From the human T2T-CHM13v2.0 reference genome, Homo sapiens, in NCBI RefSeq assembly GCF_009914755.1, contig NC_060945.1: a stretch of DNA of 64,000 nucleotides; one strand, 5' to 3'. The translations under genes and the position numbers were made by a program. Positions 10,761-34,213 of this stretch are shown here, one piece after another. How positions within the stretch are numbered: the stretch's first letter is position 1; each line of letters opens with the position of its first letter. Under the pieces are notes generated by a model. It made no database searches, was not told where the DNA came from, and saw only the letters and a program-made list of their open reading frames with translations.

Positions 10761-11074
10761 GTGAGTGTGCCGGGACCAGCTGCCCAGCCCTGTGCTTGCA
10801 GCCCCTCTGTGGTCCTGGAGCTCTCTGAGAGGAGCCTCCGTATTGGGCGATGCCCTTGGGAGCACTGCCGTCCTGGTTTCCTGCTAGTTTCCGCACTTAC
10901 AGAAGGCCGAGACCGGGGTTTGGGCTAAATTTGTCAGCTCCCGTGGACGTGGCGCTGACTCATCTCGGCTGGGGCGACGTTCTGAGTTCTGTGGCTTCCT
11001 TGTCGTCTTGGCTGCCATGGCCGCGGCCGGCTTGCTCACTGAGCCGCGTGTGCCGGCATCTGCTCATCTTGTAG

Positions 11075-11307
11075 CTCCGGCGCTGGAGGAGACATGGTCT
11101 GATGTGGCCCTCCCGGAGTTGGACAGAACTTTGTCTGAATGTGCAGAGATGTCTTCCGTGGCTGAAATTAGCAGCCACATGCGTGAAAGCTTTCTCATGA
11201 GCCCAGAAAGTGTGCGGGAGTGTGAGCAGCCCATCCGGAGGGTCTTCCAGAGCCTCAGCCTGGCCGTGGACGGCCTCATGGAGATGGCCCTGGACTCCAG
11301 CAGGCAG
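11075..11307 (+). CDS. PCNT: PCNT exon 19 (233 nt) PALEETWSD...ALDSSRQ; contains the Ser codons matching PLK1 sites S1235/S1241
   Basis: cttgtag|ctc ... cag|gtgagg; AGC codons at 11170 and 11188 fall at codons 1235 and 1241 by my numbering. Confidence 0.96.
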
Positions 11308-11676: not shown

Positions 11677-12201
<525 letters not shown>

Positions 12202-22108: not shown

Positions 22109-22824
22109 GTAAAGCGTCTCCATGTTGTGGTTGGGCACGTGGTGAGGTGTCCCGCAGGCATGGCTTCATCGCTGAGCTGGCAGGGAGTGGGCAGGGCGTC
22201 CTTCTTCACTGGCAGCCACCACGTCTGCACCAGAAACACTGGCGTCAGGGAGAAACAGAAGTCATTGGTGACGGGTAGCAAGAGTACTTTGACCTTTCTG
22301 GAGATTGTTGATTTTATTTACTGTAGTAGGATTTATACAATTTCTTTATGTCTCAAGAACTCTGAATTTATCCTTAATATTTCATAAAGTAAACATTTAA
22401 GATTTTAGGTTTAAAAAAATCTTAGCTTATTAAATACTTTGATGAGAGCCCCTTGTAATTGTTTCAATCTTTGAGCTCAGGAACTCATGTCAGCTCCCAG
22501 TGAAGAGATCTCCAGTGATGGTTTTGCATTGCTGGTGTTTGCCGTGTTGTGTGTGTTCGTTTGTGTCTGAGAGTTTAAAGAGGGGCTGGAGCACTGAGCC
22601 AGGTGGGCCATCTCATGGCTGGAGGGGGCAGGGCTGCCTGTCTGCATTTCTGGGTAGCGGCTGTGCCCTCCATTGTGAGCATTTAGCTAAAAGGAATTCA
22701 GCTGACTTCTATGAGGTTAAAAGGTTACTTGAAAAGAGGCTCAGTAAGAAATTTGATTTTAGAATTAGTAGTTTGGCCTCAGACACAGATGAGAGGAGGA
22801 GTCTTTCTCAGGTGTGTCTGATTC

Positions 22825-23155
<331 letters not shown>

Positions 23156-24137: not shown

Positions 24138-24464
<327 letters not shown>

Positions 24465-24642: not shown

Positions 24643-24795
24643 GTTTTGGACTTAAAAGAACAGCTAGAAAAGATGAAAGGTGACTTAGAAAGTAAAAATG
24701 AAGAAATACTACATCTGAACTTAAAATTGGACATGCAGAACAGCCAGACTGCTGTCAGCCTCAGAGAACTTGAGGAAGAGAACACGAGCTTGAAG
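24643..24795 (+). CDS. PCNT: PCNT exon 27 (153 nt) VLDLKEQLEKM...ENTSLK
   Basis: aatgaaag|gtt ... aag|gtaagc. Confidence 0.95.
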
Positions 24796-25404
24796 GTAAG
24801 CTACCAAAGGTCCACGTGACGCCCGAGTTCATGTTGCTTATGCCGGTGCCGAGCGGCCACCAAGACCCTCATCGGGGAGGCGAGTCTCTGGTCTTCACAG
24901 ACGCCCGTGGCCCCCATGTGGCAGACAGTGCAGAGAGCGCCCGATTCTGCCTGGGGACATGTGCATGGAAGCAGCTTTCTAGGGATCTTGAGTGAGGAAC
25001 CAGCGACCCCTGCCCCAAACTGCTTTCTGATTGCAGCACTGATAGGGATCTGAGGAGAGGCACTTCCCTAGGGCAGCACCCCAGGGCTGTGAGAGGCGTG
25101 AAGCTATTGGGCTGTTGGTGGCTTGCTCTTCTCAAGGAGGTGACTTGAGTAAGTGGCTACTCACTGTTTCTCTTCCCACTGGCATGATGGGAAAAAAATC
25201 TTAAGAACAAATTTTTTTTTAAATTTTTGTGAGTACATAGTAGGTGTATATTAAAAAATCTATTTTTAAATCTTTTATTTTAATGTAGCCGTGCTTTTGA
25301 AGCAAAAAAGAAAACCAAAACCAACCTGTTTATAGTAGAGATGATATTCAAAATTGCAGAGCATTCATAACTTCACAGATGCCCTTGAAAGACCTTGTGT
25401 AGAA

Positions 25405-26358
25405 TCGTGTGTGTGGTGCCCACACAACACGTGCTCAGTGAATGAACACAGCGTGGGAGAATTAGTGTGTGTGGTGCCCACGCGGCGCGTGCTCAGTGAA
25501 TGAACACAGCGTGGGAGAATTGTGTGTGTGGTGCCCACGCGGCGCGTGATTGGTGAATGAACACAGCGTGGGAGAATTGTGTGTGTGGTGCCCACGCGGC
25601 ACGTGCTTGGTGAATGAACACAGCGTGGGAGAATTGTGTGTGTGGTGCCCACGCGGCGTGTGCTCGGTGAATGAACACAGCGTGGGAGAAGTGTGTGTGT
25701 GTGGTGCCCACGTGGCACATGCTCGGTGAGTGAACACAGCGTGGGAGAATCGTGTGTGTGTGGTGCCCACGTGGCACATGCTCGGTGAATGAACACAGCG
25801 TGGGAGAATCGTGTGTGTGTGGTGCCCACGCGGCACGTGCTTGGTGAATGAACACAGCGTGGGAGAATAGTGTGTGTTTGGTGCCCACGCGGCGCGTGCT
25901 CGGTGAATGAACACAGCGTGGGAGAATTGTGTGTGTGGTGCCCACGCGGCACGTGCTCGGTGAATCAACTCAGCGTGGGAGAATCGTGTATGTGTGGTGC
26001 CCACGTGGCGTGTGCTCGGTGAATGAACACAGCGTGGGAGAATTGTGTGTGTGGTGCCCACGCGGCGCGTGCTCGGTGAATGAACACAGCGTGGGAGAAT
26101 TGTGTGTGTGGTGCCCACGCGGCGCGTGCTCGGTGAATGAACACAGCGTGGGAGAATTGTGTGTGTGTGGTGCCCACGTGGCGCGTGCTCGGTGAATGAA
26201 CACAGCGTGGGAGAATTGTGTGTGTGGTGCCCACGCGGCGCGTGCTCGGTGAATGAACACAGCGTGGGAGAATTGTGTGTGTGTGGTGCCCACGTGGCGC
26301 GTGCTCGGTGAATGAACACAGCGTGGGAATGCTCCCTGAGTGAACACAGCGTGGGAGA
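25405..26358. repeat. CpG-rich minisatellite, 57/59-bp unit, ~16 copies
   Basis: tgtgtgtgtggtgcccacgcggcgcgtgctcggtgaatgaacacagcgtgggagaat. Confidence 0.96.
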
Positions 26359-26542
26359 GTCTCAAAAAACAACAACAATAACAACAAAAAAAATTTTCAA
26401 ATTGATTTTCCATTTTTCCAATTTAAAACTGTAGGCTTATTTAATTAGGACATTTCATATCTGTAGGGTCAGTGGAATATTTCCCTATTAAGGTTCTGTC
26501 GGCTCTGTTTTGATATGGTTGTTGTTATTACCATTTCCACCG

Positions 26543-26620
26543 GCATTTCTGCCCAACAAAGAAGAGGAGATAGTGCGTGTGAACGAGCAGCTCTGGGCAC
26601 CGCAGGTTTACCTCGGCGAG
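26543..26620 (+). pseudogene. Putative fossil PCNT exon (78 nt) AFLPNKEEEIVRVNEQLWAPQVYLGE with broken acceptor
   Basis: Open, phase 0-0, donor gag|gtacgc. The acceptor position reads ttccacCG instead of ttccacAG. Confidence 0.6.
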
Positions 26621-26804
26621 GTACGCCACTCCCTGGTGCTGGGGGAGAAGGGGCTCTTCTCACGCTTCTGGCTACGCCTGCGTCTCCTGTACGAAGTCCT
26701 CATAGTTTCTGGGTGTGATTGACTGGGGCCTTGGCTTTCCAGGATGACAGTCTTCTGTTTCCTCATACAATATTTATAATACTTTTCAAAATTAATTTTA
26801 TCAG

Positions 26805-33334: not shown

Positions 33335-34213
33335 GTCATATATACCAGAAGTTCTGAGATTGAAGAGCTGAAAGCCACTATTGAAAATCTGCAAGAGAAT
33401 CAGAAACGATTACAAAAGGAGAAAGCAGAGGAAATTGAACAACTCCATGAAGTCATTGAGAAGCTGCAGCACGAGCTGTCCCTCATGGGGCCTGTGGTGC
33501 ACGAAGTCAGCGACAGTCAGGCTGGCAGTCTGCAGAGCGAGCTGCTCTGCTCCCAGGCCGGGGGCCCTCGTGGGCAGGCCCTACAGGGCGAGCTCGAGGC
33601 TGCGCTGGAAGCCAAGGAGGCCCTGAGCCGGCTGCTGGCTGACCAGGAGCGCAGGCACAGCCAGGCCCTGGAGGCCCTGCAGCAGCGCCTCCAGGGCGCA
33701 GAGGAGGCTGCGGAGCTACAGCTGGCTGAGCTGGAGCGCAATGTAGCCCTCAGGGAGGCTGAGGTCGAAGACATGGCCTCCCGGATCCAGGAGTTCGAAG
33801 CGGCCCTGAAAGCAAAGGAAGCGACGATTGCCGAGAGAAATTTAGAAATCGACGCTCTGAACCAGCGGAAGGCGGCCCACTCTGCCGAGCTGGAGGCCGT
33901 CCTGTTGGCCTTGGCCCGCATCCGCCGCGCCCTGGAGCAGCAGCCCCTGGCAGCCGGGGCGGCGCCTCCCGAGCTGCAGTGGCTCCGAGCGCAGTGTGCC
34001 CGCCTCAGCCGCCAGCTGCAGGTGCTGCACCAGCGGTTCCTGAGGTGCCAGGTGGAGCTGGACAGGCGGCAGGCCCGCAGAGCCACAGCTCACACACGGG
34101 TGCCCGGGGCCCACCCACAGCCTCGCATGGATGGTGGCGCCAAGGCCCAGGTCACCGGCGACGTGGAGGCCTCCCATGATGCTGCTTTGGAGCCGGTTGT
34201 CCCTGACCCACAG
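33335..34213 (+). CDS. PCNT: PCNT exon 28 (879 nt) VIYTRSSEIEEL...VVPDPQ
   Basis: ctcttcag|gtc ... cag|gtgggc; long coiled-coil ORF. Confidence 0.97.

What the first reader, a model, noticed from the sequence alone, without database searches (positions are those of the whole stretch)
26493..26626. Fossil PCNT exon in intron 27, apparently killed by a single AG>CG acceptor change
Seen: a 78-nt open frame AFLPNKEEEIVRVNEQLWAPQVYLGE, exactly phase 0-0 like flanking exons 27 and 28, ending in gag|gtacgc. It is preceded by a 50-nt AG-free T/C-rich zone ending ttccacCG where ttccacAG is expected (position 26541). The peptide continues the coiled-coil style of ENTSLK...VIYTRSSEIEEL. I recall mouse pericentrin having an extra segment beginning roughly AFLQNKEKEI at this junction (memory, unverified). 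Inference: lineage-specific exon loss in a brain- and body-size gene. A C>A reversion at 26541 could resurrect it in frame.
Basis: partly seen in the sequence, partly recalled or inferred. Interest (0 to 1): 0.7.

Follow-up and report, generated by a model that had tools for sequence, protein, structure and literature searches.

The report
Decayed ancient exon in human pericentrin
An intron of the human centrosome gene PCNT holds the decayed remains of an ancient coding exon that New World monkeys, horses, seals and manatees still carry in their predicted proteins; it was likely switched off in the ancestor of apes and Old World monkeys and is probably dispensable, so it is a genuine fossil but not a human-specific, single-mutation loss.

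Summary
The fossil exon is real. Window 26543-26620 is an open, phase 0-0 frame with a usable donor and C in place of A at the acceptor (26541). It aligns to a 31-residue insert at the exon 27/28 junction in New World monkeys, perissodactyls, seal and manatee. None of 59 catarrhine models (18 species) has it, so the loss likely dates to the catarrhine stem. It is not a one-lesion fossil: it also lacks 5 codons and has 7/26 human-unique residues (two prolines) versus 114/1954 in real exons. Strepsirrhine, tarsier, colugo, rodent and cetacean models also lack it, so it was likely lost repeatedly. The exon is ancient: the human chr7 paralog (AKAP9, name recalled) keeps it as a 60-codon exon. The intron just upstream still reads L-P-F-P in frame, so the mammalian acceptor likely arose from the Gln codon of an old F-P-Q motif. 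The junction (aa 1705/1706) lies in PCNT's recently reported dynein-activating segment, which works without the exon. Which mutation came first could not be tested. No description found in the papers searched. Verdict: new member of a known kind, modest interest.

The parts
26543..26620 (+). Fossil exon, 26 codons, phase 0-0; orthologue of a 31-codon PCNT exon (T2T chr21:44,790,543-44,790,620)
26541..26542 (+). Dead acceptor dinucleotide (CG; C at 26541 where A is expected)
   Evidence: ancestral A inferred from splice consensus and from the Gln of the F-P-Q motif
26528..26542 (+). End of the pyrimidine tract, reading L-P-F-P-P in frame; likely remnant of former coding sequence (L-x-F-P-Q in non-placental PCNT)
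   Evidence: control: 0 of 28 real acceptors read F-P at these positions
26493..26540 (+). 48-nt AG-free zone with a branch-point-like site at 26510-26514
26618..26626 (+). Donor site GAG|gtacgc, within the range of the gene's real donors
26606..26612 (+). Approximate site of the net 15-nt (5-codon) deletion that removed most of the Gly/Ser-rich hinge; exact break not resolvable from proteins
26552..26554 (+). Human-unique Pro at exon codon 4, inside the predicted helix
26600..26602 (+). Human-unique Pro at exon codon 20 (Gln in the New World monkey, perissodactyl, seal, manatee and tree shrew rows)
24643..24795 (+). PCNT exon 27, upstream flank, ends at aa 1705
   Evidence: gene table
33335..34213 (+). 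PCNT exon 28, downstream flank, starts at aa 1706
   Evidence: gene table

Best explanation
Window 26543-26620 is the decayed remnant of a PCNT coding exon, kept as a 31-residue segment in New World monkey, perissodactyl, seal and manatee protein models, which likely stopped being spliced in the catarrhine ancestor and has probably drifted neutrally since. Steps. (1, shown for the paralog, inferred for PCNT) An exon of about 57-60 codons existed before PCNT and its chr7 paralog split. (2, inferred) In the mammalian line an internal Gln codon became the new acceptor and cut the exon to 31 codons. (3, alignment plus predicted model) In placentals its second half turned from helix into a Gly/Ser/Pro-rich hinge, leaving a 24-residue helix extension plus linker. 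(4, inferred) Being symmetric and dispensable, it was dropped in several lineages. In catarrhines the acceptor change is today sufficient to keep it out (established: U2 introns end in AG). Exon 27 therefore splices to exon 28 in frame and the protein is 31 residues shorter at aa 1705/1706. Whether the acceptor change was the first hit or fixed after the exon was already skipped is open; I put it at about even.
For: Insert present in 4 of 6 platyrrhine proteins, 9 of 10 perissodactyl proteins (the tenth is partial and keeps the last 8 residues), seal 1 of 1, sirenians 2 of 2 (one partial), tree shrew 1 of 2, rabbit 1 of 1 (diverged). Absent from 59 of 59 catarrhine proteins, 18 species; a targeted search with the owl monkey exon found it only in the 4 platyrrhine proteins among 17 hits. 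Shuffle control 0/200 for 7 of 9 orthologues. Decay: 7/26 human-unique residues vs 114/1954 (Fisher p 7e-4) and vs 35/462 in exons 25-28 (p 0.004); 0 of 75 same-size windows reach 7; new prolines 2/26 vs 3/1954. Human chr7 paralog has an intact 180-nt phase 0-0 exon between the paralogues of exons 27 and 28. In-frame L-P-F-P before the dead acceptor versus [FL]-P-Q in 8 of 12 longer-form unnamed vertebrate proteins. AlphaFold2 model of seal: helix 31-126, break 127-138, exon 103-133. Human PCNT 1393-1780, which lacks the exon, moves peroxisomes as well as BICD2N (PMC13232285).
Against: All cross-species evidence is from predicted protein models, not RNA or genomic DNA. Models can skip a real exon: owl monkey and tree shrew each have one model with and one without it. 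Only cluster representatives were seen, and only 120 of 405 hits. Absence in lemurs, tarsier and colugo may therefore be annotation or isoform choice. One of the 7 human-unique residues sits next to the gap and depends on the alignment. The taxa of the non-placental proteins are inferred from a tree, not named. The F-P-Q reading was noticed after the fact, and pyrimidine tracts favour F, L and P.
Confidence: 0.82

Rival explanations
1. Recent human- or ape-specific loss caused by the acceptor change alone, possibly selected for brain or body size.
For: The acceptor change is the only splice-signal lesion seen; donor, pyrimidine tract and branch-like site remain in range. PCNT loss of function causes primordial dwarfism with microcephaly (PMC8153008 passages).
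Against: No Old World monkey or gibbon model has the exon. 7/26 changes is unlikely under coding-level divergence plus a short neutral period (P about 0.003 with an assumed, recalled neutral rate). Rodent, cetacean and lemur models lack it too.
Confidence: 0.04
2. The element is still used at low level in humans as a poison or minor exon, through an AG inside the old exon and the intact donor.
For: The donor is in range. The first two downstream AGs (26561, 26564) would give frameshifting 59- and 56-nt exons; those at 26566 and 26569 would give in-frame 54- and 51-nt exons.
Against: No such exon in the gene table or in 3 of 3 human protein records. These AGs have purine-rich upstream context. 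The decay pattern fits no coding constraint.
Confidence: 0.07
3. The exon was first silenced by nearby repeats (inverted-Alu loop-out as in TBXT, or the 57-bp tandem array upstream), and the acceptor change came later.
For: Three sense Alus start about 190 nt after the donor; antisense Alus at 22822-23125 and 24148-24451 can pair with them. A 16-copy 57-bp array ends about 215 nt upstream.
Against: No Alu was found between exon 27 and the fossil, so every inverted pair around the fossil also encloses exon 27, which 59 of 59 catarrhine models include. The repeats could not be dated.
Confidence: 0.07

Closest known systems
Lineage-specific exon loss in primates
   Same: Symmetric exon, coding in outgroups, splice-site lesion, skipped in the lineage.
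   Different: Older (catarrhine stem rather than human branch), likely lost repeatedly, and with an earlier 5' boundary shift that can still be read in the intron.
TBXT exon skipping by inverted Alu pair in hominoids (passage in 10.1101/2025.03.07.642063)
   Same: Primate-lineage skipping of an exon in a developmental gene with flanking Alus.
   Different: No Alu pair isolates this exon; it has a dead acceptor and is decayed; no phenotype is linked.
Pathogenic pseudoexons activated by one deep-intronic variant (PMC8819188, passages)
   Same: Latent exon-like tract one base away from a canonical acceptor, in a recessive disease gene.
   Different: No activating variant found in the papers searched; inclusion would be in frame; the tract is a former true exon.
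AKAP9 (AKAP450) paralogous exon, human chr7 (name recalled from position and PACT domain)
   Same: Same three-exon order, same phase 0-0, same helix motif and 3' boundary.
   Different: Intact splice sites and 60 codons long, i.e. the likely ancestral form.

Membership tests
Lineage-specific lost exon | Orthologous segment is coding in outgroups at the same junction | tested here: met
   (protein models only)
Lineage-specific lost exon | Same phase and boundaries as the live exon | tested here: met
   both ends align, phase 0-0
Lineage-specific lost exon | Inactivating splice lesion | tested here: met
   CG at 26541-26542
Lineage-specific lost exon | Absent from the lineage's protein models | tested here: met
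   0 of 59 catarrhine proteins
Lineage-specific lost exon | Absent from the lineage's RNA | not testable with these tools
   no RNA-seq available
Lineage-specific lost exon | Relaxed selection after loss | tested here: met
   7/26 vs 114/1954, p 7e-4; amino-acid level only
Single-lesion exon loss | Splice change is the only lesion | tested here: not met
   5-codon deletion and excess substitutions
Single-lesion exon loss | Splice change came first | not testable with these tools
   needs primate genomic DNA
Inverted-Alu loop-out skipping | Inverted Alu pair flanking only the skipped exon | tested here: not met
Spindly motif of dynein adaptors | JxxE-hydrophobic consensus (as given in PMC13232285) | tested here: inconclusive
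   0 of 13 placental-type exons, 9 of 14 more distant ones; but 4-9 of about 20 neighbouring windows per protein also match and the motif repeats a helix end in exon 28
Spindly motif of dynein adaptors | Binds the dynactin pointed end (p25) | not tested
   no binding prediction or assay run
Activatable pathogenic pseudoexon | A known variant causes inclusion | not testable with these tools
   no variant or splice-prediction tool; literature searches gave 0 papers

The most novel reading that the evidence does not exclude
The exon was a working part of pericentrin's built-in dynein adaptor. In non-placental vertebrates it carries a Spindly-consensus motif just before a coil break, downstream of the HBS1-like motifs. 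Its stepwise erosion (cut from about 57 to 31 codons, helix turned to hinge, then dropped in catarrhines, and with exon 27 in rodents and whales) retuned adaptor length and dynactin contact, and would explain why no Spindly motif could be mapped in human PCNT.
Probability: 0.08. Interest if true: 0.75.

Novelty: new member of a known kind. Interest (0 to 1): 0.4.

Why it matters
It is a clean record of one exon's life history in a microcephaly and dwarfism gene: intact in the paralog, shortened by a new internal acceptor, then lost in our lineage. Practically, marmoset and other model species would make a PCNT 31 residues longer inside the dynein-activating segment (aa 1393-1780), while rodent models lack 82 residues there; this gives natural length variants for testing how long that adaptor must be. 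Clinically it marks one deep-intronic base (T2T chr21:44,790,541) where a variant could add a proline-containing insert, though no such variant is known to me. It does not bear on human-specific brain evolution.

Tried and rejected
Human-specific loss: rejected (0 of 59 catarrhine models; rate check). Alu loop-out of the fossil alone: no such pair. Other fossil PCNT exons in the window: tblastn of the 132 orthologue proteins then held against the exon-masked window showed only this one; other hits were Alu-derived, low-complexity, intron run-ins of single models, or the exon 19 copy. The extra 52 residues after the exon in one owl monkey model had no match in the window. Solved structures: 5 weak hits, best E 0.055, none informative. 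ESM Atlas look-alikes gave only generic coiled-coil clusters and could not name the unnamed proteins. Pfam gave only PACT on 9 of 10 full proteins and nothing on the fossil or exon 28. Spindly consensus in placental exons: 0 of 13. The pseudo-exon filter returned only the fossil, but its thresholds were set from the fossil, so it is not counted as independent support. Two strepsirrhine rows flagged as inserts by length (P0018, P0091) were unrelated sequence and were counted as lacking the exon. Mouse was not retrieved.

Full report
Observation. Window 26543-26620 is a 78-nt open frame, phase 0-0 like its flanks, preceded by a 48-nt AG-free zone that ends in CG at 26541-26542, and followed by GAG|gtacgc. 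On a small matrix from the window's 28 annotated exons the donor outscores 7 of 28 real donors and the acceptor, ignoring the -2 position, outscores 16 of 28; one branch-like site lies 30 nt upstream. The stretch has one match in the genome.

It is a real lost exon. A search with exon 28 returned 11 proteins; manatee and Weddell seal had a 31-residue insert at the exon 27/28 junction that aligned to the fossil. A second search listed the best 120 of 405 hits, and the junction was read in all 130 homologues then held, plus two. With the exon: platyrrhines 4 of 6 proteins (owl monkey, marmoset, squirrel monkey; the two without are UniRef-only models of owl monkey and capuchin), perissodactyls 9 of 10 plus one partial tail, seal 1 of 1, sirenians 2 of 2 (one partial), tree shrew 1 of 2, rabbit 1 of 1 (much diverged). 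Without: catarrhines 59 of 59 (18 species), strepsirrhines 8 of 8, tarsier 1, colugo 1, rodents 19 of 19 (10 also lack exon 27), cetaceans 19 of 19 (18 also lack exon 27, one partial). A search aimed at the owl monkey exon scored 43 candidates, listed 17, and found the exon only in four platyrrhine proteins. Searched against all six frames of intron 27, 7 of 9 orthologous exons hit this exact place with 0 of 200 shuffles as good; tree shrew and rabbit did not pass. These are predicted models and cluster representatives, and two species have models both with and without the exon, so single absences are weak; the 59 of 59 in catarrhines is not.

It is not a one-lesion fossil. The human piece is five codons shorter than the live exon. 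Against three New World monkeys and four outgroup proteins, 7 of 26 residues are human-unique, versus 114 of 1954 in the real exons scored (p 7e-4; exon 34 had no scorable columns) and 35 of 462 in exons 25-28 (p 0.004). No one of 75 same-size windows reaches 7 (maximum 5). New prolines are 2 of 26 versus 3 of 1954. One of the seven depends on gap placement. With assumed neutral rates (recalled, not measured), 7 of 26 fits neutral drift over most of the branch since the New World monkey split and does not fit a human-only loss (P about 0.003). The loss therefore likely falls in the catarrhine stem. The acceptor change suffices to keep the exon out today, but no primate DNA was available to order the lesions.

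Deep history. A search with the seal fragment found 80 unnamed proteins. In a tree of the junction region (38 rows), a set of them falls outside the placental clade with full support; five form a long-branch group. One member of that group maps with 10 of 11 matches to human chr7 near 93.3 Mb, the AKAP9 locus (name recalled; PACT domain found). There the paralogues of exons 27 and 28 flank an intact 180-nt, phase 0-0 exon with AG and GT whose second half matches the lost segment. Most of the distant PCNT-like proteins also have up to about 26 extra residues before the segment, ending [FL]-P-Q in 8 of 12 and F-P-Q in 6 of 12, and the 31-residue mammalian exon starts right after that Gln. The human intron upstream of the dead acceptor reads L-P-F-P-P in frame; 0 of 28 real acceptors in the window read F-P there, though F alone occurs in 6 and P alone in 3. 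The likely reading is that the Gln codon became the acceptor in the mammalian line, which independently points to A at 26541. This was noticed after the fact and is inference.

What the segment did. In an AlphaFold2 model of the seal fragment (28-sequence alignment, mean pLDDT 57.6, but over 90 across residues 41-120), the exon (103-133) extends the upstream helix by 24 residues and supplies most of a low-confidence break before the exon 28 helix. In placentals the second half is rich in Gly, Pro and Ser, whereas in the distant proteins it reads as continued heptad helix. Arg1923 in exon 28 (PMC8153008) is residue 218 of that exon, so the junction is aa 1705/1706. A 2026 preprint (PMC13232285) reports that PCNT 1393-1525 is needed for dynein binding, that 1393-1780 and 1393-1910 drive peroxisome transport as well as BICD2N, and that no Spindly motif could be mapped. 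The human fragment lacks the exon and works, which argues for dispensability. The Spindly consensus is absent from 13 of 13 placental-type exons and present at one position in 9 of 14 more distant ones, but it is common in neighbouring windows and repeats a helix end in exon 28, so it is only a lead.

Rivals. Recent adaptive loss is contradicted by distribution and decay. Low-level use through internal AGs is possible but unsupported. Inverted Alus enclose exon 27 as well, which catarrhines keep.

Literature. Ten searches were run. Those aimed at this element gave 0 papers for PCNT with c.5115, c.5116 or intron 27 and 0 for deep-intronic PCNT cryptic exons; the other listings showed no title or abstract start on it. 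Seen: PMC13232285 abstract, results, first part of the discussion, figure legends, passages and supplement text, but not the figures, with 0 occurrences of 'exon'; 10.1101/2020.05.08.084749 passages only, whose 169-orthologue alignment figure and supplements I did not see and which may show the gap; PMC8153008 passages; PMC11228892 passages and 6 supplement files, 0 PCNT; 10.1101/2025.03.07.642063 passages, 0 PCNT in the main text, supplements not seen; PMC8819188 passages, 0 PCNT. The library lacks most subscription papers, and genome browsers that project other species' transcripts may already display the exon.

Verdict. A genuine fossil exon, new as far as searched, of a known kind. The three-stage history and its position in the dynein-activating segment lift it above routine, but repeated loss and a working exon-less human fragment point to a neutral event. 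Interest 0.4.

Noticed in passing
window 11763-12008 (+): A 246-nt copy of PCNT exon 19 and its acceptor (11062-11307), 239 of 246 identical, sits inside an Alu-like sequence in intron 19. It keeps the AG but has no GT at its end. It is not in the gene table; it is the only other copy in the genome. It could cause mis-mapped short reads and false exon 19 variant calls.
   Followed up: partly
window 25401-26328: 57-bp tandem array, 16 copies, 93% matches, ending about 215 nt before the fossil exon and overlapping the RefSeq enhancers 25583-26603.
   Followed up: partly
window 24643-24795 (exon 27): Exon 27 is itself missing from 18 of 19 cetacean and 10 of 19 rodent proteins and from loris and tree shrew models, so this part of the dynein-activating segment varies in length by up to 82 residues among mammals.
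   Followed up: partly
L008:2342-2521 (G000:C7:93318981-93319160): Intact 60-codon paralogous exon in the chr7 PACT-domain gene; five unnamed paralog-group proteins mostly have a shortened form like mammalian PCNT, suggesting a parallel truncation.
   Followed up: partly
protein P0101 residues about 1450-1482: The marmoset PCNT model contains an Alu-derived 33-residue segment (matches many window Alus): an exonised Alu or a model artefact.
   Followed up: no
protein P0063 after residue 1887: One owl monkey model has 52 extra residues after the exon with no match in the human window.
   Followed up: partly
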